Shown here: in pieces, positions 4,911-33,680 of the stretch | Layout of the letters: each line of letters begins with the position of its first letter | How positions within the stretch are numbered: the first letter of the stretch is position 1 | Origin: Styela clava | Lineage: Eukaryota | Assembly (NCBI RefSeq): GCF_964204865.1 | Contig: NC_135253.1 | Coordinates: forward strand, 17,794,001-17,858,000 | Direction of reading: 5' to 3' | Length of the DNA stretch: 64,000 nt | The notes under the pieces: model-generated | Database searches by the model: none | What the model saw: only the letters and a program-made list of their open reading frames with translations | Told to the model about the DNA's origin: nothing | Position numbers and translations under genes: made by a program

Positions 4911-7482
4911 ATGGAATACCATGCTCATCCTATAAGATGGTTGTTTGTTGGAGTAATGTGGATTGGAATATTTACCCACGAGTTTACAAGTACTTCATAT
5001 ACTATCGTTAACAATGTCGTCACTTCGTACTTCAACAAACCGCCAGGATCAACGGATGTGTTGGGAGTCATAGGAATGTTTTCGGGAGCAGCATTTCTGT
5101 TGGTTGCTGTCATTTTTCTTAGATTTATAAAGTTTCGTGCACAAATTCTTTCCGCCAGTACTTTGTCAATTGTGGGCATTGCAACAGCATGCCTTGGATT
5201 TGTAAACAGGTAAACTTGCTGTCTATCATCGTCCACAAGCTTTATTGCAGTATACAGCGAATTAAAAGTAGTATTGTATCATATATGATATGTTTTACGA
5301 CTAAATACTTATCTGTATATGTATATCAACGTATCGAAAATTCCTCACTAGCTAATAACTAATGTTACATGTAAAAAATAATTTTGGAAAACTTTGTATA
5401 TCGTATATATAGCCTGTGGTCCGACCTAGTTTGAGTGCGTACTGAACTATCTATTCTTTTTCTACAGAAGCATTTCTTATCTGTACGCGTTTATAATTTG
5501 ACATAATTTTGATGATATCGGATGAAATTAAGGTGCATAAAGAAATACAATTGGCTATAACGGAGATTAATCCTCGTTATAGTGGTCCGTGTGTTCAAAA
5601 AAGCTCTTATTGATCAAATGCACATATATAATATAACTTCCCCATACCGCGAACCTTAATTTAATATAAACAAAGCTAAATTTTCTTACCAATACAACAC
5701 GAAGTATGTCATGAAAAGTAAATACGTCGTGAAATTTTTAAAGTTTTAAAATTTCGTACCAAGCGTGATATATGATATTTTGCATTTTCAGAAAAACTTA
5801 CTGGATGGTTCTTGTGGGTCAAGTGTTAATTGGAATATCCGGAGGACTATTTCATGCAATTCCTTTGACCATGGCGGCATCTTGGTTTCTCACAAGTGAA
5901 AGTGCGACAGTTATTGGAATAGCCTGGAATGCTGATAGTTTAGGAGTCGCGATTTCGTCCGTTCTATTCCCTGTAGCGTTTCAAAACACCACTCAGAGCA
6001 ACATTCAGTTTATTTCATCAAGCGAAGTTCGTCAAATATTCATGGAAAGTTTTTTGCCGCTCTGTTTTCTTCTATGTATTTCTACCGTGATAGTGTGTTT
6101 ATTCTCGAGAAATAATCCTTCATCTCCACCAAGTTTATCGCAGGAAAACTATTTACAACTCGAAGAAAATACTAGAACACAAGAGCAAAATTTGATGGGG
6201 AATTTTACGACTGCTTTGGAACCTTTTAAAAATTTGAATGTTGTATTGATTCTAATAGTTCGAAGTCTTGGATGTTCTATTTTCGCTTTATCTGTACCTT
6301 TGATTTCATCAATGATGTTGGGAACATTTCACAACATGTCTGATTCGTATCCAGGAGCTATACGAATAGTGGGAGCATTACTTTCTTCGATTGGATCCAT
6401 CGTTGTCGGTTGGTTGTTGGATTATTCCAAATTCAAGAAAGAAATAACAGTAGTTTGTAAGTTGTTACATAGAATTATTTTTATATTATTTTCAAATGAA
6501 AACACTGTTTGTGGCAACATATCCGCCATGGTTGTTAACAAATTTTGGTACTCCTGAAGTATGCGCACCAAGATGTCGCATGACCTGAACCCTAACCTGG
6601 TACACAACCTGAGTTCAGGTTGTGTGCCATCTTGGTGCGCATACTCCAGGAGGTCTCAAATTTTTATGCACACACAAGAATAAATATCTTTCGATAATAT
6701 TTAATCCCGACAAACAGCGAAACCGCGGTATCTGGTCTACTTTTTTCGGACAAGTTTGTCATATATATTTATTTACAGGCGTGATTTTGCTCTAATTCCG
6801 GCATTAAATAAGCCCGTGGGTGCAAATGCACGAGGTTGAAAATGTACGTGGGTGCAAATGAACATTAGAGTAAACAAATGCCTGCGGTGCAAATGCCGCG
6901 AGTGCAAATGTCGGTTTGTGAAAATGCCCATGGGTCCAATGAAAACTCACAAGTTAAAATATCTTGGGTGCAGTTTATGACTGAAAATGTACAGGTGCCA
7001 ATCTACGTGGATACAAATGTGCTGTCACTCTAATTTTTAACGCGTCGTAAAGCGCAATAATGAACATTGCCTTTCTCACTTAACTAATCTTTAATGCTCT
7101 CTACTTCGTTGCAGGTGTCACTGGGATGCTCATCTGTGCCGTGGGAGTGTTCATTGGACATCTTTTCGGCCTTGTTTACTTAGTAACTATTTCATATCCA
7201 TCGGCAAATATGTTTAATACGTTAGTTGGAGTATGCTGTACTGAACTTATTCTGGAAATAGGATATCCGAGCAATCCATTTATTATGATATCTTGGTTTC
7301 ACATAACTACCGGAGTATTGGTTTTTAGGTATTCTGTTATAATAAGATCACTTATGAAGATAGTGAACGATGCGTCTGCAGCTGCCTTACCAGCAGTTGC
7401 AAGCTGTTTGGCGCTTGTTTTAGTTACAGCGTTGAGGTCGGATTATAGAAGAAGCAAAACTGAAGAACAAGGAGTAATATGA
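4911..7482 (+). CDS. MFS transporter, FLVCR/SLC49-like; exons 4911-5209, 5792-6456, 7115-7482 (~443 aa)
   Basis: Phase-compatible GT-AG introns; many hydrophobic helices; motifs recalling the FLVCR family (HPIRW, GQVLIG, AASWF..E.AT, PSSPPSLSQ, GWLLDYSK.KK, ELILEIGYP). Confidence 0.85.
6547..6657. mobile_element. Palindromic MITE-like element in MFS intron 2; copies in each unit near 11083, 16550, 21094 and 25639
   Basis: Inverted arms CTCCTGAAGTATGCGCACCAAGATG / CATCTTGGTGCGCATACTCCAGGAG around a core containing AACCCTAACC. Confidence 0.75.
6817..7020. repeat. Degenerate short-period repeat of GGGTGCAAATG-like motifs in MFS intron 2 (present in every unit)
   Basis: Repeated gtgggtgcaaatg / ggtgcaaatg / gagtgcaaatg / ggtgaaaatg motifs at roughly 15-20 bp spacing. 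Confidence 0.65.
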
Positions 7483-7924
7483 GAAACTAAGACATAAAAT
7501 TATCTGAATTCATCTAAAAGTGACTGGTTGATTTCGTCTGATTTTGAATGCTGCAAAGGACTTTTGAGAACAGTTTTCCAGCAATATAGTATTAAAGCAA
7601 ATGCGTATTGTATTTCAGTTACTATAACAATAGAACAATTAAATGAACATTATTAAATTGTGACTCCGACTTCTCAAGCTCGGGACATAACAAGATTTTT
7701 GAAAACTTTCGTGCACTCGCGACATTTTTCTAGTTTTGATCAAAATGTTAAGTTGACTGAACGGCGTTTAGTTTCTGTTGGTAATTGTAAAATCCCCACT
7801 TTCAGAAGCCTCAAATGTCGAATATGAATGCATGAAATTTGACGGTCATTTCATTATCATTAGAAAACATGAAAAATTGCCTGACTTAAGTAATGACAAA
7901 ACACATTTGCGGTTTGTGTACGTT

Positions 7925-7937
7925 TTTATTAAATAAA
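7925..7937. terminator. Back-to-back polyadenylation signals for the convergent MFS (+) and tetraspanin (-) genes
   Basis: TTTATT at 7925-7930 (AATAAA on the minus strand) and AATAAA at 7932-7937, between the stops at 7482 and 8038. Confidence 0.5.
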
Positions 7938-8037
7938 AGAAAAATAGAAGTATGATTCAAAATTTCCACTCCCGGAACAAGTCTAGGAGTTGTGCCCTGA
8001 TCTATAGGTGCACAGGACAGCGAGGCGTGGTATTACA

Positions 8038-9994
8038 TTACCATTCCTCAAGACTCTCCAAGCTAACAATGGAGAGTTTGTCACCATTGATACTTCGTTT
8101 AACTTTTGGAGCGTCTGATTGGACTGGCGTTACCCATGTGTCTGTAGTAGGAACAGGTTCAGGGAAATCCAGTTCGGGAGCTCTAAAGGTGACGACGATA
8201 TCCTTATGAAACTTCAGGAACTGGGGTGGCATCTTAGCAGGTGTAGGAGGTCGTGGCCTAGCCTCATCACGTAAGTTTATGCCGCCGTTTTCAAAGTAAT
8301 CTTTGTGAGACAAGCTTCTCGAAGATCGGCTGATTTTGGCCCTTCCTCTCCAAGTTTTAGGGCTGTTTTTAATTTCGTTTATGGTACTCATTACTGGTGG
8401 TGGATTGTCTATTGGAGTGACAATTCTGCTTTCAAGTTGCACTCGTGACGTTGAAGGCAATTCAGGCATTTTACTAATTACATGATTGTTCTCCAAACTG
8501 GAAACATTGCTAAGGTTCATAGTCTCACTGCTGTTGTTTTTGACTCCATTTTCGAAAAACACCAAACTGATATTCGAATCCGTTGAACTTTCGTTTACTT
8601 TGAGGCAAATTGGTTGAACTCGATTTCTTCTATATGATTCACAGCATCCACGGAAAAGAGACGGAAGTCGGGCATTTCTACGCCAAATCACCCAAGATAT
8701 ATGAAGTAGAAGTAGCACGAATGCAAAGGTTAATAGCAATAAACCATGAATAATTAGCCATGACTGAATGGCCTCATTGCATCCTCTGTCAAAAGTTTCA
8801 TTGAAATATTCTCCAAACGGGATTGGGGTATTTGCGACAGGACTTGTCGTAGTACCCAACATAGCAAATGTTGAAACGTCAGTAAAAAAGTTCTCAGAAG
8901 GTAAAGAACAATCTGATATATTGATGCAACAGGATTGCGGTGTCCAATCCCGGACGATACCCCTATCGTTGTCGATCTGGATCCAATCCTTGCGGGATTC
9001 ACGTCCGCAGCATTGAAATGTACTCTGAAAATGACGGCAAATTAGCAAAGCATTGAAAACATATTTTGTATAAAATTGTGTATTCATCGATCCATGATAT
9101 TTATCGGAAATTTGTTATTATATATATAAGTATTTTCAATATTAAAAATCACATTCATCGACGGAAATACAGATTATGCATGCGGATATATAACCAGATA
9201 ATCGTGGGCGAGTGTTCAGAGACGCAATGTTCATGATGGCACTTTACCAACATTCTTTATATATATAACTTTCGCATTATATAAGATCTAACCTGATAAA
9301 CGTCCATAATATTTCGATCCGTTGCCTCAGTAACCCAGGGTATTGCCGACTCAATCAGAGACGACATGTGGCTTCTTATTGGCGAATCCACGAGGAATAA
9401 CAGTCCGCCTAAAGTAAGGCATAACACTATAACTATTCTCAAAACATAGATGAAACAAACTGATGCGTTCGGTTCTTTATCTGGAAAATCATCGATGATG
9501 CTCCTTTGACGATGAACACAAATCGCCCCATACAGTCCGATGACCTGGTTTGTAAAACACGACCTTAGGTTATCAGTAATAAATACTCCAATAAACCACA
9601 ATATGAGTTACTGATATTTACCAAAATTATCTCCAAGATATTTGCGAAAGCAATAAGGAAATTCCACGAAACGTCACCGAAACTTGTACCCACGCTGGGA
9701 AGGTACACAAAGATATCAGCACGCTTGATAACTCCGGAGAATTCTCCGCGATCAAACACGCCAGACTCAGCAAGATGAGCGAGAATTGCCCAAACCAGCA
9801 AGATGAATCCAAACAGAATACAGACAAATAGGTTGAACACATACCAGAAGAAAGAAATCTGCGATAAAAAACACATGTAATTTATGAATTCCAACTTGGG
9901 TTCTTCTTCATTTTATCAGGTATAAACTAACCTTCTCTGATCTTGTTCTCGTTATTACAAAACGTCTAGAAGGCATATTGATCAAATGATCCAT
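8038..9994 (-). CDS. Tetraspanin with long C-terminal tail, copy 1 (intact); exons 9994-9932, 9858-9622, 9544-9293, 9024-8038 (~512 aa)
   Basis: Three phase-0 GT-AG introns; TM1 FWYVFNLF..LFG, TM2 VIGLYGAIC, large loop YQSTFQCCG...PQSCC...C...RGC, then TM4. Confidence 0.9.
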
Positions 9995-10480
9995 ATCATA
10001 ACCGATGATCTAGGAAGATTCCGGTCAAATAATGGTTTATTTTCATTTTCACTCTTTTTCATGAAACAGTCAATATTGTGACGTCACAAAACACTTATGT
10101 TTTTATTTGCAACGCCAACTTGAAACAAAAAATATCAGCCTACCAGAACACTATGATTTTGAAGTTCAAATAAATATGTTGAACATTCTTCGTACAGAGT
10201 ATGGTATTTCGCCGGAGTATGAGAAGTGCGAGGAGGCTCTGATATTGATAATAATTAAAATGCACCCGATGAACTTATTAGACTCGACCATACTAACATA
10301 TATACGCAAGGCGCTTAGAAATGCGACGGAAAGCGTATTCGTAACGACTATCGCGATGTGTATTTCCAACAAAAACTACAAGGTCATGGAAGTGCTAAGT
10401 GCGTCCGTTGTATGAACAAAACTGTGACACTTCCAAAAATCACATTTTAAATGGCATCGCTCTCACGTATATTCGTTCCT

Positions 10481-12027
10481 AGTCGCGATTTCTCCCGTTC
10501 TCTTTCCTGTGGCATTTCACAACACCACTCAGAGCAACATTCAGTTTATTTCATCAAGCGAAGTTCGTCAAATATTCATGGAAAGTTTTTTGCCGCTTTG
10601 TTTTCTTCTATGCATTTCTACCGTGATAATGTGTTTATTCTCTAGAAATAATCCTCCATCGCCACCAAGTTTATCGCGGGAAAACTATTTACAACTCGAA
10701 GAAAATACCAGAACACAAGAGCAAAATTTGATGGGGAATTTTACGACTGCTTTGGAACCTTTAAAAAATTTGAATGTTGTATTGATTCTAATAGTTCGAA
10801 GTCTTGGATGTTCTATTTTCGCTTTATCTGTACCTTTGATTTCATCTATGATGTTGGGAACATTTCTCAACATGTCTGATTCGTATCCAGGAGCTATACG
10901 AATAGTAGGAGCACTACTTTCAGCGATTGGATCTATCGTTGTCGGTTGGTTGTTGGATTATTCCAAATTTAAGAAAGAAATAACAGTAGTTTGTAAGTTG
11001 TTAAACAGAATTATTTTGATATTATTTTCAAATGAAAACATCCTATGTGGAAACATTTCCGCGATGGATTGTTAACAAATTTTGGTACTCCTGAAGTATG
11101 CGCACCAAGATGTCGCATAACCTGAACCCTAACCTGGTACACAACCTGAGTTCAGGTTGTGCGCCATCTTGGGGCGCATACTTCAGGAGGTCCCAAATTT
11201 GTTAACAATCCATCGCGGATATGTTGTTATAATATCTTTTAAAAATATTTAATCCTGACAAACAGCGAAACCACGGTATCTGGTCTACTTTTTTCGGACA
11301 AGTTTGTCATATTTATTTACAGGCGTGATTTCGCTCTAAATCCGGCTTTACATAAGCCTGTGGGTGCAAATGCTCGAGGTTGCAAATGTACGTGGGTGCA
11401 AATAAACATTGGAGTAAACAAATGTCTGAGGGTGCAAATGCCGCGAGTGGAATTGTCGGTTGGTGAAAATGCCCATGGGTCCAATGAAAACTCACAAGTT
11501 CAAATATCTTGGGTGCAGTTTATGACTGAAAATGTACAGGTGCCAATCTACGTGGATACAAATGTGCTGTCCCTCTAATTTTTAACGCGTCGTAAAGCGC
11601 AATAATGAACATTGCCTTTCTCACTTAACTAATCTTTAATGCTCTCTACTTCGTTGCAGGTGTCACTGGGATGCTCATCTGTGCCGTGGGAGTGTTCATT
11701 GGACATCTTTTCGGCCTTGTTTACTTAGTAACTATTTCATATCCATCGGCAAATATGTTTAATACGTTAGTTGGAGTATGCTGTACTGAACTTATTCTGG
11801 AAATAGGATATCCGAGCAATCCATTTATTATGATATCTTGGTTTCACATAACTACCGGAGTATTGGTTTTTAGGTATTCTGTTATAATAAGATCACTTAT
11901 GAAGATAGTGAACGATGTGTCTGCAGCTGCCTTACCAGCAGTTGCAAGCTGTTTGGCGCTTGTTTTAGTTACAGCGTTGAGGTCGGATTATAGAAGAAGC
12001 ATAACTGAAGAACAAGGAGTAATATGA
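10481..12027 (+). pseudogene. 5'-truncated MFS copy (unit 2)
   Basis: Begins mid exon 2 at the array junction and lacks exon 1; the remaining frame is open. Confidence 0.8.
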
Positions 12028-12434
12028 GAAACTAAGACATAAAATTATCTGAATTCATCTAAAAGTGACTGGTTGATTTTGTCTGATTTTGAATGCTGCA
12101 AAGGACTTTTGAGAACAGTTTTCCAGCAATATAGTATTAAAGCAAATGCGTATTGTATTTCAGTTACTATAACAATAGAACAATTAAATGAACATTATTA
12201 AATTGTGACTCCGACTTCTCAAGCTCGGGACATAACAAGATTTTTGAAAACTTTCGTGCACTCGCGACATTTTTCTAGTTTTGATCAAAATGTTAAGTTG
12301 ACTGAACGGCGTTTAGTTTCTGCTGGTAATTGTAAAATCCCCACTTTCAGAAGCCTCAAATGTCGAATATGAATGCATGAAATTTGACGGTCAATTCATT
12401 ATCATTAGAAAACATGAAAAATTGCCTGACTTAA

Positions 12435-13352
12435 CCTTCCGACCGCTCCAATCCCTGACCATTTTATGGGTATTTTCAAACCTATTTTTTTTTGTCAACC
12501 ATTAAGCCCTTAAGCTTCAATCATGGCTTTTTAAAAGCGTCTGCTAGAGTTCTATTCAGCAATATATCTTTAAAACACACTCCTCGAAAAAAAAATTTTG
12601 CAAAAAAATTTCAAAAATTTCTAAAAAAAAAATTGGACTTTGAGATATTCTGTGTACAGTAGAGGGTTAATAATTAATTCCTAATTAATTAGTTTTTTCT
12701 TCAACGTTTTCGTCAAGTTTTTCCTAACATAACAATACCGAAACGACTATTATAGCATAAATGGTTATTACTCTGAAATTCACAATTGTATTTACAGTAT
12801 TGTCAAGTTCAAGGTCAAATTACCGATACTGATGACGTCACAGCTCTTATTATTACTGCACAGACCACCCCCAATGCAAAAAAATTAAATTTTTTCGACG
12901 GAAATGCGCGTAGAACGACGTAAACAATCTCATACGCGCATTCACGCGTTAAAATTACCATTAATTTTACGTTTTTTTTACATACAAAAAATCTCCATAC
13001 CTCTGCCAACTATGGAGCAGTCGAAATCATATTTATCAAAACAACACAGCGCCAGGAATGATCAGGGATAGTTAGTATGACTGAAAATACATGCTAAAGC
13101 AATAATAAGTCGTTATAAAGGAGTATTTTCTGTCTGAGCTGAGTCGACATTTTCAGACGTCTGACAGGCGATTTTGAAATCCACGCTATTTATACGATTC
13201 GCACTTTGCGTCACGGCTGGAAGGTTTTATCGCTTCTCTCATATCAGGGCATTACGTCAATAAACAGTTAAGAGCGATATTAACAGTAGGTTACCATGTG
13301 CTAGACTTAATAGCGTTGAGAATCCCATATGGACTAACGAGCGGCGAGAGAG
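12435..13352. mobile_element. Non-autonomous piggyBac-like element (918 bp), unit 2 only
   Basis: TTAA duplicated at 12431-12434 and 13353-13356; other units have a single TTAA; imperfect TIRs CCTTCCGACCGCTC / CTCTCTCGCCGCTC; no transposase ORF. Confidence 0.88.
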
Positions 13353-13504
13353 TTAAGTAATGACAAAACACATTTGCGGTTTGTGTACGTTTTTATTAAA
13401 TAAAAGAAAGATAGAAGTATGATTTAAAATTTCCACTCCCGGACCAAGTCTAGGAGTTGTGCCCTGATCTATAGGTGCACAGGACAGCGAGGCGTGGTAT
13501 TACA

Positions 13505-15461
13505 TTACCATTCCTCAAGACTCTCCAAGCTAACAATGGAGAGTTTGTCACCATTGATACTTCGTTTAACTTTTGGAGCGTCTGATTGCACTGGCGTCAC
13601 CCATGTGTCTGTAGTAGGAACAGGTTCAGGGAAATCCAGTTCGGGAGCTCTAAAGGTGACGACGATATCCTTATGAAACTTCAGGAACTGGGGTGGCATC
13701 TTAGCAGGTGTAGAAGGTCGTGGCCTAGCCTCATCACGTAAGTTTATGCCGCCGTTTTCAAAGTAATCTTTGAGAGACAAGCTTCTCGAAGATCGGCTGA
13801 TTTTGGCCCTTCCTCTCCAAGTTTTAGGGCTGTTTTTAATTTCGTTTATGGTACTCATTACTGGTGGTGGATTGTCTATTGGAGTGAGCATTCTGCTTTC
13901 AAGTTGCACTCGTGACGTTGAAGGCAATTCAGGCATTTTACTAATTACATGATTGTTCTCCAAACTGGAAACATTGCTAAGGTTCATAGTCTCACTGCTG
14001 TTGTTTTTGACTCCATTTTCGAAAAACACCAAACTGATATTCGAATCCGTTGAACTTTCGTTTACTTTGAGGCAAATTGGTTGAACTCGATTTCTTCTAT
14101 ATGATTCACAGCATCCATGGAAAAGAGACGGAAGTCGGGCATTTCTACGCCAAATCACCCAAGATATATGAAGTAGAAGTAGCACGAATGCAAAGGTTAA
14201 TAGCAATAAACCATGAATAATTAGCCATGACTGAATGGCCTCATTGCATCCTCTGTCAAAAGTTTCATTGAAATATTCTCCAAACGGGATTGGGGTATTT
14301 GCGACAGGACTTGTCGTAGTACCCAACATAGCAAATGTTGAAACGTCAGTAAAAAAGTTCTCAGAAGGTAAAGAACAATCTGATATATTGATGCCACACG
14401 ATTGCGGTGTCCAATCCCGGTCGATACCCCTATCGTTGTCGATCTGGATCCAATCCTTGCGGGATTCACGTCCGCAGCATTGAAATGTACTCTGAAAATG
14501 ACGGCAAATTAGCAAAGCATTGAAAACATATTTTGTATAAAATTGTGTATTCATCGATCCATGATATTTATCGGAAATTTGTTATTATATATATAAGTAT
14601 TTTCAATATTAAAAATCACATTCATCGACGGGAATACAGATTATGCATGCGGATATATAACCAGATAATCGTGGGCGAGTGTTCAGAGACGCAATGTTCA
14701 TGATGGCACTTTACCAACATTCTTTATATATATAACTTTCGCATTATATAAGATCTAACCTGATAAACGTCCATAATATTTCGATCCGTTGCCTCAGTAA
14801 CCCAGGGTATTGCCGACTCCATCAGAGACGACATGTGGCTTCTTATTGGCGAATCCACGAGGAATAACAGTCCGCCTAAAGTAAGGCATAACACTATAAC
14901 TATTCTCAAAACATAGATGAAACAAACTGATGCGTTCGGTTCTTTATCTGGAAAATCATCGATGATGCTCCTTTGACGATGAACACAAATCGACCCCTAC
15001 AGTCCGATGACCTGGTTTGTAAAACACGACCTTATGTTATCAGTAATAAATACTCCAATAAACCACAATATGAGTTACTGATATTTACCAAAATTATCTC
15101 CAAGATATTTGCGAAAGCAATAAGGAAATTCCACGAAACGTCACCGAAACTTGTACCCACGCTGGGAAGGTACACAAAGATATCAGCACGCTTGATAACT
15201 CCGGAGAATTCTCCGCGATCAAACACGCCAGACTCAGCAAGATGAGCGAGAATTGCCCAAACCAGCAAGATGAATCCAAACAGAATACAGACAAATAGGT
15301 TGAACACATACCAGAAGAAAGAAATCTGCGATAAAAAACACATGTAATTTATGAATTCCAACTTGGGTTCTTCTTCATTTTATCAGGTATAAACTAACCT
15401 TCTCTGATCTTGTTCTCGTTATTACAAAACGTCTAGAAGGCATATTGATCAAATGATCCAT
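13505..15461 (-). pseudogene. Tetraspanin copy 2, nonsense mutation in exon 3
   Basis: TAT->TAG at 14997-14999 in TM2 (GLY->GL*); also PQSCC->PQSCG, losing a conserved Cys. Confidence 0.88.
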
Positions 15462-15947
15462 ATCATAACCGATGATCTAGAAAGATTCCGGTCAAATGAT
15501 GGTTTATTTTCATTTTCACTCTTTTTCATGAAACAGTCAATATTGTGACGTCACAAAACACTTATGTTTTTATTTGCAACGCCAACTTGAAACAAAAAAT
15601 ATCAGCCTACCAGAACACTATGATTTTGAAGTTCAAATAAATATGTTAAACATTCTTCGTACAGAGTATGGTATTTCGCCGGAGTATGAGAAGTGCGAGG
15701 AGGCTCTGATATTGATAATAATTAAAATGCACCCGATGAACTTATTAGACTCGACCATACTAACATATATACGCAAGGCGCTTAGAAATGCGACGGAAAG
15801 CGTATTCGTAACGACTATCGCGATGTGTAATTCCAACAAAAACTACAAGGTCATGGAAGTGCTAAGTGCGTCCGTTGTATGAACAAAACTGTGACACTTC
15901 CAAAAATCACATTTTAAATGGCATCGCTCTCACGTATATTCGTTCCT

Positions 15948-17482: not shown

Positions 17483-18048
17483 GGAGTAATATGAGAAACT
17501 AAGACATAAAATTATCTGAATTCATCTAAAAGTGACTGGTTGATTTCGTCTGATTTTGAATGCTGCAAAGGACTTTTGAGAACAGTTTTCCAGCAATATA
17601 GTATTAAAGCAAATGCGTATTGTATTTCAGTTACTATAACAATAGAACAATTAAATGAACATTATTAAATTGTGACTCCGACTTCTCAAGCTCGGGACAT
17701 AACAAGATTTTTGAAAACTTTCGTGCACTCGCGACATTTTTCTAGTTTTGATCAAAATGTTAAGTTGACTGAACGGCGTTTAGTTTCTGTTGGTAATTGT
17801 AAAATCCCCACTTTCAGAAGCCTCAAATGTCGAATATGAATGCATGAAATTTGACGGTCATTTCATTATCATTAGAAAACATGAAAAATTGCCTGATTAA
17901 GTAATGACAAAACACATTTGCGGTTTGTGTACGTTTTTATTAAATAAAAGAAAAATAGAAGTATGATTTAAAATTTCCACTCCCGGACCAAGTCTAGGAG
18001 TTGTGCCCTGATCTATAGGTGCACAGGACAGCGAGGCGTGGTATTACA

Positions 18049-20005: not shown

Positions 20006-20491
20006 ATCATAACCGATGATCTAGGAAGATTCCGGTCAAATAATGGTTTATTTTCATTTTCACTCTTTTTCATGAAACAGTCAATATTGTGACGTCACAA
20101 AACACTTATGTTTTTATTTGCGACGCCAACTTGAAACAAAAAATATCAGCCTACCAGAACACTATGATTTTGAAGTTCAAATAAATATGTTGAACATTCT
20201 TCGTACAGAGTATGGTATTTCGCCGGAGTATGAGAAGTGCGAGGAGGCTCTGATATTGATAATAATTAAAATGCACCCGATGAACTTATTAGACTCGACC
20301 ATACTAACATATATACGCAAGGCGCTTAGAAATGCGACGGAAAGCGTATTCGTAACGACTATCGCGATGTGTATTTCCAACAAAAACTACAAGGTCATGG
20401 AAGTGCTAAGTGCGTCCGTTGTATGAACAAAACTGTGACACTTCCAATAATCACATTTTAAATGGCATCGCTCTCACGTATATTCGTTCCT

Positions 20492-22038
20492 AGTCGCGAT
20501 TTCTCCCGTTCTCTTTCCTGTGGCATTTCACAACACCACTCAGAGCAACATTCAGTTTATTTCATCAAGCGAAGTTCGTCAAATATTCATGGGAAGTTTT
20601 TTGCCGCTTTGTTTTCTTCTATGCATTTCTACCGTGATAATGTGTTTATTCTCTAGAAATAATCCTCCATCGCCACCAAGTTTATCGCGGGAAAACTATT
20701 TACAACTCGAAGAAAATACCAGAACACAAGAGCAAAATTTGATGGGGAATTTTACGACTGCTTTGGAACCTTTAAAAAATTTGAATGTTGTATTGATTCT
20801 AATAGTTCGAAGTCTTGGATGTTCTATTTTCGCTTTATCTGTACCTTTGATTTCATCTATGATGTTGGGAACATTTCTCAACATGTCTGATTCGTATCCA
20901 GGAGCTATACGAATAGTAGGAGCACTACTTTCAGCGATTGGATCTATCGTTGTCGGTTGGTTGTTGGGTTATTCCAAATTTAAGAAAGAAATAACAGTAG
21001 TTTGTAAGTTGTTAAACAGAATTATTTTGATATTATTTTCAAATTAAAACATCCTATGTGGAAACATTTCCGCGATGGATTGTTAACAAATTTTGGTACT
21101 CCTGAAGTATGCGCACCAAGATGTCGCATAACCTGAACCCTAACCTGGTAAACAACTTGAGTTCAGGTTGTGCGCCATCTTGGGGCGCATACTTCAGGAG
21201 GTCCCAAATTTGTTAACAATCCATCGCGGATATGTTGTTATAATATCTTTCAAAAATATTTAATCCTGACAAACAGCGAAACCACGGTATCTGGTCTACT
21301 TTTTTCGGACAAGTTTGTCATATTTATTTACAGGCGTGATTTCGCTCTAAATTCGGCTTTACATAAGCCTGTGGGTGCAAATGCTCGAGGTTGCAAATGT
21401 ACGCGGGTGCAAATAAACATTGGAGTAAACAAATGTCTGAGGGTGCAAATGCCGCGAGTGGAATTGTCGGTTGGTGAAAATGCCCATGGGTCCAATGAAA
21501 ACTCACAAGTTCAAATATCTTGGGTGCAGTTTATGACTGAAAATGTACAGGTGCCAATCTACGTGGATACAAATGTGCTGTCACTCTAATTTTTAACGCG
21601 TCGTAAAGCGCAATAATGAACATTGCCTTTCTCACTTAACTAATCTTTAATGCTCTCTACTTCGTTGCAGGTGTCACTGGGATGCTCATCTGTGCCGTGG
21701 GAGTGTTCATTGGACATCTTTTCGGCCTTGTTTACTTAGTAACTATTTCATATCCATCGGCAAATATGTTTAATACGTTAGTTGGAGTATGATGTACTGA
21801 ACTTATTCTGAAAATAGGATATCCGAGCAATCCATTTATTATGATATCTTGGTTTCACATAACTACCGGAGTATTGGTTTTTAGGTATTCTGTTATAATA
21901 AGATCACTTATGAAGATAGTGAACGATGCGTCTGCAGCTGCCTTACCAGCAGTTGCAAGCTGTTTGGCGCTTGTTTTAGTTACAGCGTTGAGGTCGGATT
22001 ATAGAAGAAGCAAAACTGAAGAACAAGGAGTAATATGA
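20492..22038 (+). pseudogene. 5'-truncated MFS copy (unit 4) with nonsense codon
   Basis: Junction-truncated; TGC->TGA at 21790-21792. Confidence 0.85.
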
Positions 22039-22593
22039 GAAACTAAGACATAAAATTATCTGAATTCATCTAAAAGTGACTGGTTGATTTCGTCTGATTT
22101 TGAATGCTGCAAAGGACTTTTGAGAACAGTTTTCCAGCAATATAGTATTAAAGCAAATGCGTATTGTATTTCAGTTACTATAACAATAGAACAATTAAAT
22201 GAACATTATTAAATTGTGACTCCGACTTCTCAAGCTCGGGACATAACAAGATTTTTGAAAACTTTCGTGCACTCGCGACATTTTTCTAGTTTTGATCAAA
22301 ATGTTAAGTTGACTGAACGGCGTTTAGTTTCTGTTGGTAATTGTAAAATCCCCACTTTCAGAAGCCTCAAATGTCGAATATGAATGCATGAAATTTGACG
22401 GTCATTTCATTATCATTAGAAAACATGAAAAATTGCCTGACTTAAGTAATGACAAAACACATTTGTGGTTTGTGTACGTTTTTATTAAATAAAAGAAAAA
22501 TAGAAGTATGATTTAAAATTTCCACTCCCGGACCAAGTCTAGGAGTTGTGCCCTGATCTATAGGTGCACAGGACAGCGAGGCGTGGTATTACA

Positions 22594-24550
22594 TTACCAA
22601 TCCTCAAGACTCTCCAAGCTAACAATGGAGAGTTTGTCACCATTGATACTTCGTTTAACTTTTGGAGCGTCTGATTGCACTGGCGTTACCCATGTGTCTG
22701 TAGTAGGAACAGGTTCAGGGAAATCCAGTTCGGGAGCTCTAAAGGTGACGACGATATCCTTATGAAACTTCAGGAACTGGGGTGGCATCTTAGCAGGTGT
22801 AGGAGGTCGTGGCCTAGCCTCATCACGTAAGTTTATGCCGCCGTTTTCAAAGTAATCTTTGAGAGACAAGCTTCTCGAAGATCGGCTGATTTTGGCCCTT
22901 CCTCTCCAAGTTTTAGGGCTGTTTTTAATTTCGTTTATGGTACTCATTACTGGTGGTGGATTGTCTATTGGAGTGAGCATTCTGCTTTCAAGTTGCACTC
23001 GTGACGTTGAAGGCAATTCAGGCATTTTACTAATAACATGATTGTTCTCCAAACTGGAAACATTGCTAAGGTTCATAGTCTCACTGCTGTTGTTTTTGAC
23101 TCCATTTTCGAAAAACACCAAACTGATATTCGAATCCGTTGAACTTTCGTTTACTTTGAGGCAAATTGGTTGAACTCGATTTCTTCTATATGATTCACAG
23201 CATCCACGGAAAAGAGACGGAAGTCGGGCATTTCTACGCCAAATCACCCAAGATATATGAAGTAGAAGTAGCACGAATGCAAAGGTTAATAGCAATAAAC
23301 CATGAATAATTAGCCATGACTGAATGGCCTCATTGCATCCTCTGTCAAAAGTTTCATTGAAATATTCTCCAAACGGGATTGGGGTATTTGCGACAGGACT
23401 TGTCGTAGTACCCAACATAGCAAATGTTGAAACGTCAGTAAAAAAGTTCTCAGAAGGTAAAGAACAATCTGATATATTGATGCAACAGGATTGCGGTGTC
23501 CAATCCCGGACGATACCCCTATCGTTGTCGATCTGGATCCAATCCTTGCGGGATTCACGTCCGCAGCATTGAAATGTACTCTGAAAATGACGGCAAATTA
23601 GCAAAGCATTGAAAACATATTTTGTATAAAATTGTGTATTCATCGATCCATGATATTTATCGGAAATTTGTTATTATATATATAAGTATTTTCAATATTA
23701 AAAATCACATTCATCGACGGGAATACAGATTATGCATGCGGATATATAACCAGATAATCGTGGGCGAGTGTTCAGAGACGCAATGTTCATGATGGCACTT
23801 TACCAACATTCTTTATATATATAACTTTCGCATTATATAAGATCTAACCTGATAAACGTCCATAATATTTCGATCCGTTGCCTCAGTAACCCAGGGTATT
23901 GCCGACTCCATCAGAGACGACATGTGGCTTCTTATTGGCGAATCCACGAGGAATAACAGTCCGCCTAAAGTAAGGCATAACACTATAACTATTCTCAAAA
24001 CATAGATGAAACAAACTGATGCGTTCGGTTCTTTATCTGGAAAATCATCGATGATGCTCCTTTGACGATGAACACAAATCGCCCCATACAGTCCGATGAC
24101 CTGGTTTGTAAAACACGACCTTAGGTTATCAGTAATAAATACTCCAATAAACCACAATATGAGTTACTGATATTTACCAAAATTATCTCCAAGATATTTG
24201 CGAAAGCAATAAGGAAATTCCACGAAACGTCACCGAAACTTGTACCCACGCTGGGAAGGTACACAAAGATATCAGCACGCTTGATAACTCCGGAGAATTC
24301 TCCGCGATCAAACACGCCAGACTCAGCAAGATGAGCGAGAATTGCCCAAACCAGCAAGATGAATCCAAACAGAATACAGACAAATAGGTTGAACACATAC
24401 CAGAAGAAAGAAATCTGCGATAAAAAACACATGTAATTTATGAATTCCAACTTGGGTTCTTCTTCATTTTATCAGGTATAAACTAACCTTCTCTGATCTT
24501 GTTCTCGTTATTACAAAACGTCTAGAAGGCATATTGATCAAATGATCCAT
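22594..24550 (-). CDS. Tetraspanin copy 4 (frame intact)
   Basis: Same exons as copy 1; C-terminus LEDW instead of LEEW. Confidence 0.82.
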
Positions 24551-25036
24551 ATAATAACCGATGATCTAGGAAGATTCCGGTCAAATAATGGTTTATTTTC
24601 ATTTTCACTCTTTTTCATGAAACAGTCAATATTGTGACGTCACAAAACACTTATGTTTTTATTTGCAACGCCAACTTGAAACAAAAAATATCAGCCTACC
24701 AGAACACTATGATTTTGAAGTTCAAATAAATATGTTGAACATTCTTCGTACAGAGTATGGTATTTCGCCGGAGTATGAGAAGTGCGAGGAGGCTCTGATA
24801 TTGATAATAATTAAAATGCACCCGATGAACTTATTAGACTCGACCATACTAACATATATACGCAAGGCGCTTAGAAATGCGACGGAAAGCGTATTCGTAA
24901 CGACTATCGCGATGTGTATTTCCAACAAAAACTACAAGGTCATGGAAGTGCTAAGTGCGTCCGTTGTATGAACAAAACTGTGACACTTCCAAAAATCACA
25001 TTTTAAATGGCATCGCTCTCACGTATATTCGTTCCT

Positions 25037-26583
25037 AGTCGCGATTTCTCCCGTTCTCTTTCCTGTGGCATTTCACAACACCACTCAGAGCAACATTCAG
25101 TTTATTTCATCAAGCGAAGTTCGTCAAATATTCATGGAAAGTTTTTTGCCGCTTTGTTTTCTTCTATGCATTTCTACCGTGATAATGTGTTTATTCTCTA
25201 GAAATAATCCTCCATCGCCACCAAGTTTATCGCGGGAAAACTATTTACAACTCGAAGAAAATACCAGAACACAAGAGCAAAATTTGATGGGGAATTTTAC
25301 GACTGCTTTGGAACCTTTAAAAAATTTGAATGTTGTATTGATTCTAATAGTTCGAAGTCTTGGATGTTCTATTTTCGCTTTATCTGTACCTTTGATTTCA
25401 TCTATGATGTTGGGAACATTTCTCAACATGTCTGATTCGTATCCAGGAGCTATACGAATAGTAGGAGCACTACTTTCAGCGATTGGATCTATCGTTGTCG
25501 GTTGGTTGTTGGATTATTCCAAATTTAAGAAAGAAATAACAGTAGTTTGTAAGTTGTCAAACAGAATTATTTTGATATTATTTTCAAATTAAAACATCCT
25601 ATGTGGAAACATTTCTGCGATGGATTGTTAACAAATTTTGGTACTCCTGAAGTATGCGCACCAAGATGTCGCATAACCTGAACCCTAACCTGGTACACAA
25701 CCTGAGTTCAGGTTGTGCGCCATCTTGGGGCGCATACTTCAGGAGGTCCCAAATTTGTTAACAATCCATCGCGGATATGTTGTTATAATATCTTTCAAAA
25801 ATATTTAATCCTGACAAACAGCGAAACCACGGTATCTGGTCTACTTTTTTCGGACAAGTTTGTCATATTTATTTACAGGCGTGATTTCGCTCTAAATCCG
25901 GCTTTACATAAGCCTGTGGGTGCAAATGCTCGAGGTTGCAAATGTACGTGGGTGCAAATAAACATTGGAGTAAACAAATGTCTGAGGGTGCAAATGCCGC
26001 GAGTGGAATTGTCGGTTGGTGAAAATGCCCATGGGTCCAATGAAAACTCACAAGTTCAAATATCTTGGGTGCAGTTTATGACTGAAAATGTACAGGTGCC
26101 AATCTACGTGGATACAAATGTGCTGTCCCTCTAATTTTTAACGCGTCGTAAAGCGCAATAATGAACATTGCCTTTCTCACTTAACTAATCTTTAATGCTC
26201 TCTACTTCGTTGCAGGTGTCACTGGGATGCTCATCTGTGCCGTGGGAGTGTTCATTGGACATCTTTTCGGCCTTGTTTACTTAGTAACTATTTCATATCC
26301 ATCGGCAAATATGTTTAATACGTTAGTTGGAGTATGCTGTACTGAACTTATTCTGGAAATAGGATATCCGAGCAATCCATTTATTATGATATCTTGGTTT
26401 CACATAACTACCGGAGTATTGGTTTTTAGGTATTCTGTTATAATAAGATCACTTATGAAGATAGTGAACGATGTGTCTGCAGCTGCCTTACCAGCAGTTG
26501 CAAGCTGTTTGGCGCTTGTTTTAGTTACAGCGTTGAGGTCGGATTATAGAAGAAGCAAAACTGAAGAACAAGGAGTAATATGA
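25037..26583 (+). pseudogene. 5'-truncated MFS copy (unit 5)
   Basis: Junction-truncated; the remaining exon 2 part and exon 3 are open. Confidence 0.8.
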
Positions 26584-27138
26584 GAAACTAAGACATAAAA
26601 TTATCTGAATTCATCTAAAAGTGACTGGTTGATTTCGTCTGATTTTGAATGCTGCAAAGGACTTTTGAGAACAGTTTTCCAGCAATATAGTATTAAAGCA
26701 AATGCGTATTGTATTTCAGTTACTATAACAATAGAACAATTAAATGAACATTATTAAATTGTGACTCCGACTTCTCAAGCTCGGGACATAACAAGATTTT
26801 TGAAAACTTTCGTGCACTCGCGACATTTTTCTAGTTTTGATCAAAATGTTAAGTTGACTGAACGGCGTTTAGTTTCTGTTGGTAATTGTAAAATCCCCAC
26901 TTTCAGAAGCCTCAAATGTCGAATATGAATGCATGAAATTTGACGGTCATTTCATTATCATTAGAAAACATGAAAAATTGCCTGACTTAAGTAATGACAA
27001 AACACATTTGCGGTTTGTGTACGTTTTTATTAAATAAAAGAAAAATAGAAGTATGATTTAATATTTCCACTCCCGGACCAAGTCTAGGAGTTGTGCCCTG
27101 ATCTATAGGTGCACAGGACAGCGAGGCGTGGTATTACA

Positions 27139-29555
27139 TTACCATTCCTCAAGACTCTCCAAGCTAACAATGGAGAGTTTGTCACCATTGATACTTCGTT
27201 TAACTTTTGGAGCGTCTGATTGCACTGGCGTTACCCATGTGTCTGTAGTAGGAACAGGTTCAGGGAAATCCAGTTCGGGAGCTCTAAAGGTGACGACGAT
27301 ATCCTTATGAAACTTCAGGAACTGGGGTGGCATCTTAGCAGGTGTAGGAGGTCGTGGCCTAGCCTCATCACGTAAGTTTATGCCGCCGTTTTCAAAGTAA
27401 TCTTTGAGAGACAAGCTTCTCGAAGATCGGCTGATTTTGGCCCTTCCTCTCCAAGTTTTAGGGCTGTTTTTAATTTCGTTTATGGTACTCATTACTGGTG
27501 GTGGATTGTCTATTGGAGTGAGCATTCTGCTTTCAAGTTGCACTCGTGACGTTGAAGGCAATTCAGGCATTTTACTAATTACATTATTGTTCTCCAAACT
27601 GGAAACATTGCTAAGGTTCATAGTCTCACTGCTGTTGTTTTTGACTCCATTTTCGAAAAACACCAAACTGATATTCGAATCCGTTGAACTTTCGTTTACT
27701 TTGAGGCAAATTGGTTGAACTCGATTTCTTCTATATGATTCACAGCATCCACGGAAAAGAGACGGAAGTCGGGCATTTCTACGCCAAATCACCCAAGATA
27801 TATGAAGTAGAAGTAGCACGAATGCAAAGGTTAATAGCAATAAACCATGAATAATTAGCCATGACTGAATGGCCTTATTGCATCCTCTGTCAAAAGTTTC
27901 ATTGAAATATTCTCCAAACGGGATTGGGGTATTTGCGACAGGACTTGTCGTAGTACCCAACATAGCAAATGTTGAAACGTCAGTAAAAAAGTTCTCAGAA
28001 GGTAAAGAACAATCTGATATATTGATGCAACAGGATTGCGGTGTCCAATCCCGGACGATACCCCTATCGTTGTCGATCTGGATCCAATCCTTGCGGGATT
28101 CACGTCCGCAGCATTGAAATGTACTCTGAAAATGACGGCAAATTAGCAAAGCATTGAAAACATATTTTGTATAAAATTGTGTATTCATCGATCCATGATA
28201 TTTATCGGAAATTTGTTATTATATATATAGGTATTTTCAATATTAAAAATCACATTCATCGACGGGAATACAGATTATGCATGCGGATATATAACCAGAT
28301 AATCGTGGGCGAGTGTTCAGAGACGGAATGTTCATGATGGCACTTTACCAACATTCTTTATATATATAACTTTCGCATTATATAAGATCTAACCTGATAA
28401 ACGTCCATAATATTTCGATCCGTTGTCTCAGTAACCCAGGGTATTGCCGACTCCATCAGAGACGACATGTGGCTTCTTATTGGCGAATCCACGAGGAATA
28501 ACAGTCCGCCTAAAGTAAGGCATAACACTATAACTATTCTCAAAACATAGATGAAACAAACTGATGCGTTCGGTTCTTTATCTGGAAAATCATCGATGAT
28601 GCTCCTTTGACGATGAACACAAATCGCCCCATACAGTCCGATGACCTGGTTTGTAAAACACGACCTTAGGTTATCAGTAATAAATACTCCAATAAACCAC
28701 AATATGAGTTACTGATATTTACCAAAATTATCTCCAAGATGACTGCGAAAGCAACAAGAAAATTCCACGAAACTCGGAGGCGCAGTTCTTACCACTTCAT
28801 GGCAGCTCCTGCCACGAACGAACCGCGGCAGCTCTTGCCATGGTTTTATAGCGCTATTCAGTATTCAGTAATCAGTATTAACGGTATATTCACAAATTAA
28901 TGTACCAGATTTTAATTGATCATGTGGAATTATATCTACTTAAACCCTAACCCCAAATCAATCAAAACTGTATCCATAAGAAAAACGTTCCAACTTACCC
29001 AATATTTGTCACCATAATAGACAGCCCTGTCTTTACGGCCCACCTGCCGCGGTTACGGCAGCAAAATTTTACCTGCCATTGGTTTTCAATTTGCTGCCGC
29101 GGTAACGGCAGCTCGACATTGGTTTGTGGCAGCTAAAAAGTCAGTTGCCATGAGTTTGGCCGTAGCGGCCATGGTATGGAAATACCGCCATGGTTTTGCG
29201 GCAGCTGCAGATGCCACAGAATACTTAAAACTGCACTTGGAAACTCGTACCCACGCTGGGAAGGTACACAAAGATATCAGCACGCTTGATTACTCCGGAG
29301 AATTCTCCGCGATCAAACACGCCATCCTCAGCAAGATGAGCGAGAATTGCCCAAACCAGCAAGATGAATCCAAACAGAATGCAGAGAAATAGGTTGAACA
29401 CATACCAGAGGAAAGAAATCTGCGATTGTAAACACATGTAATTTATGAATTCCAACTTGGGTTCTTCTTCATTTTATCAGGTATAAACTAACCTTCTCTG
29501 ATCTTGTTCTCGTTATTACAAAACGTCTAGAAGGCATATTGATCAAATGATCCAT
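27139..29555 (-). pseudogene. Tetraspanin copy 5, exon 2 interrupted by an insertion
   Basis: Exon 2 frame runs LPSVGTSF-QVQF* into the insertion at 28777-29239; the other exons are open. Confidence 0.75.
28777..29239. mobile_element. 463-bp non-autonomous DNA element (8-bp TSD, hAT-like) in tetraspanin copy 5
   Basis: GAAACTCG at 28769-28776 and 29240-29247; imperfect TIRs GAGGCGCAGTTCT / CAAGTGCAGTTTT; many internal TGCC/GGCA repeats; absent from units 1-4. Confidence 0.8.
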
Positions 29556-30374
29556 ATCATAACCGATAATCTAGGAAGATTCCGGTCAAATAATGGTTTA
29601 TTTTCATTTTCACTCTTTTTTATTTATGAAATAGTGAACATTGTGACGTCTCAAAACAATTATGTTTTATTTGCAAAGCCAACTTGAAACAAAAAATAAC
29701 TGCATACCAGAACACTATGAATTTGAAGTTTAAACAAATATGTTGAATATTCTTCGTACAGAGTATGGCATTTCGCCGGAGTATGAGAAGTGCGAAGAGG
29801 CTCTGATATTGGTAATAATTAAGATGCATCCGATGAACTTAATAGACTCGACCATACTAACATACGTAAGGCGCTTAGAAATGCGACGGAAAGCGCATTC
29901 GCAACGTCTATCGCGATGTGTATTTCTAACAAAAACTACAAGGGCATGGAAGTGCTGAGTGCGTCGGTTATATGAACAAAACTGTGACACATCCAATAAT
30001 CACCATTTAAATGAAATTCTTCGTGAGGGGAAACGGATTGGCACGTGGACAGCCAGTTTTTATCTTTAGGACAACGCTCTCACGTAGATTCGTTCTGAAT
30101 AAGATACTAACATACAAACTCAATGATAGTTAATAAGCATGTACGGGCAGTGTGTTCCGTTAGCTCGAGACTAGTTGAGATAGGCTTCAAATAGTTAGAC
30201 ATTAGCAGCCATTTTTCAGATTGTTTTATATTATGGCACACCAAAAAGGTCTAAGGTTAGACCTTAACAACTAACTTATCAGGGGAAGCTGACTGGCGAG
30301 TCGCAGGTTAATATACTAGAATCATCTTGACATCTATGGGAACGGATTTTCATATTATTTATCTCAAGGGAATG

Positions 30375-33096: not shown

Positions 33097-33680
33097 TATT
33101 GGTTGATTTGGGTTAGTATGGAAGACTTAAGGATACTTCACATTGTTATGACTATATTCAAATGGTAAAAATAAATTTCTAATTGATTAAAATTATCTGT
33201 TTTTAAAGTAAAAATTTAAAATGAATTTTTCCATTCACATGGATATTTGATAAATTATTTCTGGCCTATGTCAAACCATATCCTATGTTCGAGAACCACT
33301 GTCTGGTTCTAGTGTATTATATTTTACCTCAATATTCAAGTATCAAATGTTAGAATGACTGATAACTATCAATTAACAACGCCATGAAAGATGTTATAAT
33401 AAGACGTAGGTTTATTAATATAGCTATTTAGCTAAACAAAAACGCATATATATCCAAGATGCAACAAAACTACATAGCCTACTTTAAATTGATTGATTGA
33501 TTAAAATAATAAGAATACCTAAAGTTATCAACCTATCCAGATTATGTATAGCCTGAACAAGATCTTTGACGACTAGGCCACTGTTTGCCGGTATCTGACT
33601 ATATAAACTAATTGAAAAAAACAACCTATACTTAATTAGAATTAAACTTTTCAACGAAACGCTATCGAGGCGGAAAGTAT

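What the first reader, a model, noticed from the sequence alone, without database searches (positions are those of the whole stretch)
5945..30095. Recent five-fold tandem amplification whose only complete gene is an unusual tetraspanin
Seen: the breakpoints cut the MFS gene in exon 2 but include the whole tetraspanin plus ~485 bp of upstream DNA. Internal units differ by scattered substitutions and almost no indels. Copies 1, 3 and 4 are open, copy 2 has a stop and lost a Cys, and copy 5 is transposon-hit. Copy 5 is the only one still attached to the native distal upstream region. Inference: birth-and-death evolution in progress, probably a copy-number-variable locus in which function moved to short-promoter duplicates.
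Basis: partly seen in the sequence, partly recalled or inferred. Interest (0 to 1): 0.7.

Follow-up and report, generated by a model that had tools for sequence, protein, structure and literature searches.

The report
Two-step sea-squirt tetraspanin gene array
A sea squirt carries five head-to-tail copies of a gene for a membrane-organising protein with an unusually long inner tail, three open and two broken; the array likely grew from an older duplication by later misaligned recombination, which is ordinary gene birth and death in an uncharacterised protein subfamily.

Summary
The array is real. Five ~4.5-kb units each hold a four-exon, 512-aa tetraspanin gene and, in units 2-5, a headless piece of the neighbouring MFS gene. 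Copies 1, 3 and 4 are open. Copy 2 has Y105* and C217G. Copy 5 has a 463-bp transposon plus an 11-bp deletion. Depth fits 4 junctions and 5 cores, and a second sample has a junction-spanning contig.

It is not one recent event. The interior is ~99% identical, but the outer edges differ by 5-10%. In the truncated MFS piece those differences are mostly synonymous (16 S/8 N, dN/dS 0.14), so they arose while both versions were working genes; expansion came later.

The 'short promoter' loses little: it keeps a TGACGTCA (CRE-type) palindrome shared with 4 of 6 distant paralogues, which the native-position copy has lost. The gene is a six-cysteine tetraspanin of a subfamily found here only in Styela clava, with a ~214-aa tail. 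A second tandem cluster lies 0.55 Mb away. Copy-number variation and selection for dosage are not shown. Verdict: ordinary birth-and-death, in a mildly interesting orphan subfamily.

The parts
4911..7482 (+). Native, open MFS transporter gene, 443 aa (exons 4911-5209, 5792-6456, 7115-7482); only its 3' part is in the repeat unit
   Evidence: open spliced frame; Pfam MFS_1, 44.3 bits, cut-off 33.4, exon 2
5945..10480 (.). Unit 1; its first ~1 kb (5945-6960) is of a divergent lineage, 4.7-10% from units 2-5
8038..9994 (-). Tetraspanin copy 1, open, 512 aa; exons 9994-9932, 9858-9622, 9544-9293, 9024-8038
   Evidence: introns 2 and 3 skipped in X5 and X8 contigs; same protein as database entry P0005
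10079..10086 (.). TGACGTCA palindrome (CRE-type) 92 nt upstream of the ATG; also at 15546-15553, 20090-20097 and 24635-24642; mutated in unit 5 (position 29651)
10455..10487 (.). Junction 1 (also at 15938, 20482, 25027): promoter DNA with a 57-nt deletion, 2 untemplated nt, then MFS exon 2; no long homology
   Evidence: spanned by an X7 contig
10481..15947 (.). Unit 2, with headless MFS piece and a private transposon
12435..13352 (.). 918-bp non-coding transposon with TTAA target duplication (piggyBac-type by its TTAA target; label from my knowledge), only in unit 2
   Evidence: 40 of 461 candidates scored, 94-99% alike; TTAA on both sides in 10 of 12 loci
13505..15461 (-). Tetraspanin copy 2, dead: stop at codon 105 (14997-14999), C217G (14395)
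   Evidence: database model P0004 ends at residue 104
15948..20491 (.). Unit 3
18049..20005 (-). Tetraspanin copy 3, open (the database model P0006 is 5'-short, but all four exons and splice sites are intact)
20492..25036 (.). Unit 4
22594..24550 (-). Tetraspanin copy 4, open; same protein as P0001 (LOC144422088)
25037..30095 (.). Unit 5; its right part (28741-30015) is of a divergent lineage and joins the native flank
27139..29555 (-). Tetraspanin copy 5, dead: exon 2 holds a transposon and lacks 11 nt that are present in copies 1-4 and in paralogues C4b and C6
28777..29239 (.). 463-bp non-coding transposon with 8-bp target duplication (hAT-like by TSD length; label from my knowledge)
   Evidence: 40 of 1119 candidates scored; 8-bp TSD in 12 of 12 loci
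30742..33126 (-). TMEM232-family ORF, native upstream neighbour; an X8 contig of it reaches down to 30272
   Evidence: PF15877, 273.6 bits

Best explanation
Five tandem 4.5-kb units each carry a long-tailed tetraspanin gene and four carry a headless piece of the neighbouring transporter gene; the array likely arose in two steps, an older duplication whose two halves diverged as working genes and a later expansion by misaligned recombination, and three copies are predicted to make the protein. Step 1 (inferred): a segment holding the whole MFS gene and the tetraspanin was duplicated, and both halves diverged under purifying selection (dS about 0.15). Step 2 (inferred): a non-homologous deletion removed the second MFS gene's 5' part and made today's junction. 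Step 3 (inferred from the shown mosaic): unequal crossover or conversion in the middle of the unit multiplied junction-bearing units and homogenised 6961-9639, leaving old divergence only at the outer edges. Step 4 (shown): copies 2 and 5 were broken. The open copies keep the family's conserved TGACGTCA element. The protein most likely works as a tetraspanin membrane-domain scaffold whose ~214-aa disordered tail, with conserved juxtamembrane cysteines, a PPTP motif and a terminal Ser/acidic cluster, docks partners under phosphorylation control (inferred, untested), and its gene is likely CREB/ATF-responsive (inferred). Extra copies are most likely drift plus redundancy, not shown to be selected.
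For: Edge/core step in divergence. Truncated against native MFS exon 2: 16 synonymous and 8 non-synonymous differences, dS 0.146, dN 0.021, binomial P 1e-5; if half of dS had accrued neutrally, 28 replacements would be expected, P 7e-6. All 3 unit-private changes in that piece are replacements, so it now looks neutral. Three shared SNP patterns in the core join non-adjacent units. Both transposons have relatives 98.9-99.5% alike, so they are young. Differences between this genome and other samples' listed contigs here are 0.7-4.2%, below the edge divergence. The C4a/C4b tandem pair has a similar age, dS 0.11. Depth and an independent junction contig. Palindrome at -92 in U1-U4 and at -93 to -101 in 4 of 6 paralogues; background 2 in 39,844 nt and 4 in 45,286 nt. 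Family-wide dN/dS 0.18-0.38 over 15 of 15 pairs, tail 0.20-0.73.
Against: Steps 1-2 cannot be told from a single duplication between two very divergent alleles. Single-copy paralogues already differ by 2.9% of residues between two database versions, so alleles are diverse. The X1 contig over 6683-8605 gives 4.0-fold depth where 4-5 is expected. X15's unit depth (4.9) equals the genome mean expected from bases read (5.0), so its 5.7-fold unit/flank ratio could be flank drop-out. Private changes in exons 3-4 of the open copies are 2 S/7 N, with no sign of purifying selection (low power). The palindrome is also mutated in the open paralogue C4a. X5 and X8 are only guessed to be RNA. No RNA could be assigned to a unit. 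The structure model is poor (mean pLDDT 41), so the tail's role rests on sequence only.
Confidence: 0.55

Rival explanations
1. One non-homologous duplication joined two unusually divergent alleles (ancient or introgressed haplotypes), and unequal crossover then expanded the array. The edge divergence is allelic, not paralogous.
For: Needs one rearrangement, not two. Explains the synonymous excess equally well. Proteins of single-copy paralogues differ by 14 of 491 and 15 of 520 residues between database versions.
Against: Edges differ by 7.5-10% in non-coding DNA and dS is 0.146, against 0.7-4.2% for other samples' listed contigs and a published heterozygosity of 1.72% (PMC7540406, passage). 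The flank-attached promoter contig in X8 is only 8 substitutions and 2 indels from U5.
Confidence: 0.33
2. Copy number is being raised by selection for dosage of the tetraspanin, for example in gametes or in stress or immune cells.
For: Two separate tandem clusters of this subfamily on one chromosome. X1 depth suggests that both homologues carry the array. The junction is present in another sample. The conserved promoter element is kept in the duplicates. X8 shows high depth for both this gene (116-158) and TMEM232 (270), a sperm-flagellum gene in mice (PMC11549365, PMC10296807; listing and start of abstract only).
Against: 2 of 5 copies are dead. Recent changes look neutral. No paralogue pair has EC2 dN/dS above 0.43. 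Tandem arrays are common in this genome according to other, unchecked AI notes.
Confidence: 0.15
3. The headless MFS piece is itself a selected, expressed half-transporter, made from the tetraspanin promoter in the opposite direction.
For: The frame is open in 4 of 4 pieces; the junction supplies an AG after a pyrimidine run, and the first ATG after it (10578) is in frame.
Against: 5 of 7 differences upstream of that ATG are also synonymous (read), so the constraint predates truncation. All 3 private changes are replacements. Depth over exon 2 in X5 and X8 is 0-1.5.
Confidence: 0.04
4. The array is an assembly artefact (haplotypes or reads stacked in tandem).
For: Units are about 99% alike, and no single read or contig spanning the array was seen.
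Against: Private transposons in U2 and U5 with clean target duplications; depth 4x and 5x; junction contig in another sample; junction-containing sequence occurs only at these four places in G000 (7 of 7 candidates scored).
Confidence: 0.03

Closest known systems
Six-cysteine ('6-cys-a') tetraspanins: CD63, CD151, TSPAN3/6/12/18, RDS/peripherin-2, UPK1 (PMC2965184, passage with the motif table)
   Same: Four hydrophobic segments, CCG, DW, PxxCC, C and GC in EC2; Pfam PF00335 above its cut-off; best PDB sequence matches are TSPAN15 and CD63 (E 6e-4)
   Different: 512 aa with a ~214-aa tail; longer EC1, inner loop and EC2 variable region than the short tetraspanins aligned; no orthologue outside S. 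clava found
Fungal Tsp2 and Tsp3 long-tailed tetraspanins (PMC2278132, passages)
   Same: Long C-terminal cytoplasmic tail; Tsp2 is multigenic in some species
   Different: Their tails are 66-110 aa, about half this one; different Cys pattern; no homology tested or implied
Drosophila Tsp42Ea-r tandem tetraspanin cluster (PMC11917152, passage)
   Same: Tandem amplification of tetraspanin genes of little-known function
   Different: That cluster is old and lies in a region free of breakpoints across species; this one is young, homogenised and losing members
Tandem arrays shaped by unequal crossover and gene conversion, with partial duplicates of neighbours (PMC3449122, passages)
   Same: Complete gene plus partial neighbour; homogenised paralogues
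   Different: Here the truncated neighbour keeps a synonymous-site record of an earlier coding history, which dates the founding event
RefSeq S. clava LOC144422088, LOC144421932, LOC144422123, LOC144422185 (uncharacterized proteins)
   Same: Automatic models of copies 4, 1, 2 and 3 already exist
   Different: Not named as tetraspanins; copy 3 modelled 5'-short; no array or family description found

Membership tests
Tetraspanin (PF00335) | Profile score above the curated cut-off | tested here: met
   58.6 bits against 32.1, residues 25-292
Tetraspanin (PF00335) | Four transmembrane segments with a large loop between TM3 and TM4 | tested here: met
   Hydropathy windows 21-57, 83-111, 124-157, 269-299; matching helices in a low-confidence model
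Tetraspanin, 6-cys-a type | CCG--[DN][WY]--PxxCC--C--GC in EC2 | tested here: met
   C189 C190 G191, D197 W198, P213-C216 C217, C223, G265 C266 (pattern from PMC2965184)
Tetraspanin (PF00335) | Tetraspanin fold by structure comparison | tested here: inconclusive
   Model mean pLDDT 41; 0 of 10 Foldseek rows reach E 0.001; the top two rows are PRPH2 and TSPAN15
Tetraspanin (typical members) | Short cytoplasmic tails (typical, not strictly defining; recalled, exceptions in PMC2278132) | tested here: not met
   Tail 299-512; no Pfam or Atlas match for it
Tetraspanin (PF00335) | Palmitoylation and lateral partner clustering in membranes | not testable with these tools
   C311 and C312 lie next to TM4 and a Cys pair is present in 4 of the 5 paralogues that reach this region; no assay
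Named vertebrate subfamily (CD63, TSPAN15, peripherin/RDS) | Orthology by strong best hits or phylogeny | tested here: inconclusive
   Only weak EC2-region matches to several subfamilies, E 1e-5 to 7e-4; Atlas scores 0.88-0.89. No tree with outside members was built.
Birth-and-death multigene family | Repeated duplication with pseudogenes and purifying selection on survivors | tested here: met
   11 members in G000, 3 broken (U2, U5, C4c); dN/dS 0.18-0.38 among older paralogues
Copy-number-variable locus | Different copy numbers in different individuals or haplotypes | tested here: inconclusive
   X1 about 5 units, X15 ratio 5.7 with caveats, X7 too shallow
CRE (CREB/ATF site) | Canonical palindrome TGACGTCA | tested here: met
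   motif as in PMC1796609, which reports no TSS-proximal bias for it in Ciona
CRE (CREB/ATF site) | Factor binding and cAMP-responsive transcription | not testable with these tools
   needs a reporter or binding assay

The most novel reading that the evidence does not exclude
Styela has its own subfamily of tetraspanins with a long, conserved signalling tail, all switched by one CRE element, and selection is raising their dosage in two independent tandem clusters, most plausibly as a sperm-surface or gamete-recognition scaffold; the array would then be an adaptive, species-wide amplification caught while the original copy dies.
Probability: 0.12. Interest if true: 0.6.

Novelty: new variant of a known kind. 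Interest (0 to 1): 0.33.

Why it matters
As genome evolution it is an ordinary process, but a tidy case: a truncated passenger gene records, in its synonymous sites, that a 99%-identical array is much older than it looks, a caution for dating duplications by unit identity. As protein biology it points to an undescribed tetraspanin subfamily with a tail about twice the 66-110 aa of the long-tailed fungal forms and a promoter reduced to one conserved element, which makes a simple reporter and expression test possible. It would matter more if dosage were shown to be selected or tied to fertilisation in this invasive species.

Tried and rejected
Two homologue searches with MFS exon 2, meant to find a full-length allele of the internal type, gave nothing (0 of 1855 candidates at E 1e-20; 0 of 403 at E 1e-10), so the allele-versus-paralogue question stays open.
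No RNA holder is on record; X5 and X8 are only guessed to be RNA.
Structure prediction of the full-length protein was poor and the fold search gave no significant match; VIA-align was not run.
Atlas search of the tail gave no usable hit.
Positive selection on EC2 was not seen in pairwise dN/dS (4 of 15 EC2 pairs saturated).
A first MFS dN/dS run was in the wrong frame and is discarded; one search is the corrected one. The other outputs are used.
The idea that copies 1-4 carry a transposon excision footprint was rejected: paralogues C4b and C6 have the same 11 nt (the other three paralogues gave no printed row).
P0010 (2875 aa, E 3e-6) was treated as a chance match and left out of alignment A2, as were P0013, P0016, P0018 and P0019.
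Depth baseline: four values were used (16.7, 15.6, 18.6 and the sum of two neighbouring half-depth contigs, an assumption); contigs at 12.7 and 8.93 were left out. For X15, 15 repeat-free unit bins and 5 right-flank bins of the 30, and 9 left-flank bins of the 30, were used.
Earlier-findings look-ups by place and by sequence returned nothing.
Literature: 'Styela clava' + 'tetraspanin' 0 papers; 'tetraspanin' + 'ascidian' 56 papers, 25 listed, none about this family by title; searches gave no description of the locus. No supplements were read; gene-family tables in the supplements of PMC7540406 could list these genes.
Full report
OBSERVATION. Self-BLAST and a five-way alignment show five head-to-tail units: U1 5945-10480, U2 10481-15947, U3 15948-20491, U4 20492-25036 and U5 25037-~30095, with four identical junctions. 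The window lies on contig C4 of a 377-Mb genome. Database proteins identical to two copies are named Styela clava. The left breakpoint lies 153 nt into exon 2 of an open 443-aa MFS gene. The right breakpoint lies 484 nt upstream of the tetraspanin ATG. The junction has a 2-nt filler and no long homology, with a 57-nt deletion next to it. The tetraspanin has four phase-0 exons and 512 aa; introns 2 and 3 are skipped in contigs of X5 and X8, runs guessed to be RNA. U1, U3 and U4 are open. U2 has Y105* and C217G. U5 has a 463-bp element with an 8-bp target duplication (12 of 12 loci checked) and lacks 11 nt present in U1-U4 and in paralogues C4b and C6.

IS IT REAL? In X1, probably the assembled sample and so not independent, contig depths are 3.9, 4.0, 5.0 and 3.9 times a flank baseline of 16.9. 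That fits 4 junctions and 5 cores per chromosome on average; one value (6683-8605) is at the low end, the baseline left out two contigs, and the tool warns that contig depth is not copy number. In X7 (different sample, study and organism label) one 412-nt contig spans the junction with 11 differences. In X15 (raw Hi-C reads, another sample) unit bins are 5.7 times deeper than flank bins, but the unit depth equals the expected genome mean, so this is only suggestive. The junction occurs nowhere else in G000. An artefact is unlikely. Copy-number variation is neither shown nor excluded.

NOT ONE RECENT EVENT. The middle of the unit (6961-9639) differs by 0.2-1.0% between any two units. U1's first kilobase differs from U2-U5 by 4.7-5.1% in the exon and 9.6-10.4% in the intron, and U5's last 0.8 kb of aligned sequence differs from U1-U4 by 6.1-6.6% (P 7e-32 and 2e-21). 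The right-hand step begins 36 nt from the U5 transposon. In the truncated MFS piece the differences from the native exon are 16 synonymous and 8 non-synonymous (dS 0.146, dN 0.021, P 1e-5 against neutrality). Had the piece been dead since the duplication, about 28 replacements would be expected (P 7e-6). So the two versions diverged as working genes. All 3 private changes since are replacements. Two histories fit: (B) an older duplication that included the whole MFS gene, then a deletion that made the junction; or (A) one duplication between two very divergent alleles. Other samples' listed contigs differ from the window by 0.7-4.2%, and published heterozygosity is 1.72% (PMC7540406, passage), which favours B. 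Alleles of single-copy paralogues differ by 2.9% of residues, which keeps A alive. Either way, unequal crossover or conversion then multiplied and homogenised the units (inference; three shared SNP patterns join non-adjacent units).

THE PROMOTER. The native ATG lies 1187 nt from the TMEM232 stop and at most 717 nt from the end of a TMEM232 contig in X8, so the duplicates keep most of the intergenic DNA. Among upstream regions of the 11 family members, similarity between U4 and the paralogues is confined to about 100 nt before the ATG. It centres on TGACGTCA, at -92 in U1-U4 and at -93 to -101 in C4b, C6, C10 and C18 (dS to U4 0.39-1.72). It is mutated in U5, in the broken C4c and in the open C4a. 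Background is 2 in 39,844 nt and 4 in 45,286 nt. This is the canonical CRE sequence (PMC1796609, abstract and passages; that paper finds no TSS-proximal bias of CREs in Ciona, so the position here is not a default). Binding is untested. The spliced X8 contig carries the intact, U1-4-type exon 2, while X8's flank-attached promoter contig is U5-like. This is compatible with expression from junction-linked copies, but X8 is another individual and no unit can be assigned.

THE PROTEIN. Pfam PF00335 58.6 bits (cut-off 32.1), four hydrophobic segments and the 6-cys-a pattern of PMC2965184 (passage) make it a tetraspanin. Its tail (299-512) is predicted with low confidence and little secondary structure and matches nothing in Pfam or the Atlas, yet it is conserved across paralogues (dN/dS 0.20-0.73), including juxtamembrane cysteines, a PPTP motif and a terminal Ser/acidic cluster. 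Reading these as palmitoylation and phosphorylation sites is my inference from general knowledge. G000 holds six more members: three in tandem 0.55 Mb away (one broken), and one each on C6, C10 and C18. A profile search of 1.84 billion representatives gave 12 hits at E 0.001; the 2 strong ones are S. clava proteins and the other 10 are weak (7 of 12 looked up by name). No subfamily could be assigned.

MECHANISM. Shown: array anatomy, mosaic divergence, two dead copies, conserved palindrome, splicing of two introns in other samples. Inferred: order of events, role of unequal crossover, CRE function, scaffold role. I put the two-stage origin (A or B) at about 0.9, B alone at 0.55, and selection for dosage at 0.15. 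Against selection: private changes in exons 3-4 of the open copies are 2 S/7 N, and EC2 shows no dN/dS above 0.43. A gonadal role is a lead only: X8 has high depth for both this gene and TMEM232, which mice need for sperm flagella (PMC11549365, PMC10296807; listing and start of abstract only), and a Botryllus tetraspanin is gonad-expressed (PMC4523013, passages; no orthology tested).

COMPARISON AND NOVELTY. Tandem tetraspanin clusters (Tsp42E, PMC11917152, passage), long-tailed tetraspanins (fungal Tsp2 and Tsp3, 66-110 aa, PMC2278132, passages) and partial duplicates homogenised by conversion (PMC3449122, passages) are all known. Four of the five copies already have automatic RefSeq models. 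I found no paper on this locus or family (PMC12627437 and PMC7540406 main texts have no 'tetraspanin'; supplements not read). Other AI notes on this genome describe several similar arrays (unchecked).

VERDICT. Real; first reading partly right; ordinary birth-and-death in an undescribed long-tailed tetraspanin subfamily. New variant of a known kind, interest 0.33.

Noticed in passing
G000:C4:18367619-18380800 (L011-L013): Second tandem cluster of the same subfamily: three copies at about 5.1-kb spacing, 83-93% alike, two open (530 aa) and one broken; dS 0.11 between the open pair.
   Followed up: partly
L014 4740-7108 (G000:C6): The C6 paralogue stops at 493 aa in this assembly, while another database version (P0007) runs on to the conserved C-terminal motif: a possible segregating truncation.
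   Followed up: no
window 10479-10580 and equivalents: The junction creates a pyrimidine run plus AG, and the first ATG after it is in frame with the MFS gene; no expression seen in two runs.
   Followed up: partly
window 5792-6456: The MFS gene belongs to a large family in this genome (69 matches of 81 candidates), with several tandem groups and broken members. Its resemblance to FLVCR/SLC49 transporters is recalled, not tested.
   Followed up: no
window 304-680 and exons to about 2130: Secreted phospholipase A2-like exons (PF00068, E 2e-7 and 0.009, below cut-off) upstream of the MFS gene.
   Followed up: no
window 30742-33126: Uninterrupted 794-aa TMEM232-family ORF; Pfam covers only residues 58-340.
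   Followed up: no
window 2525-2855 and 62275-62617: Two copies (94%) of a very abundant dispersed repeat, SINE-like by my reading, also present in each unit of the second cluster.
   Followed up: no
window 6515-6663 and equivalents: Palindromic high-copy element (MITE-like) in MFS intron 2, whose ends differ between unit 1 and units 2-5.
   Followed up: no
window 29843-30260: An X8 contig (depth 5) covers the intergenic DNA between TMEM232 and copy 5; it could be read-through transcript or DNA in the run.
   Followed up: no
window 34803-44000: Exons of a WD40-repeat gene on the plus strand (weak Pfam matches), head-to-head with TMEM232.
   Followed up: no
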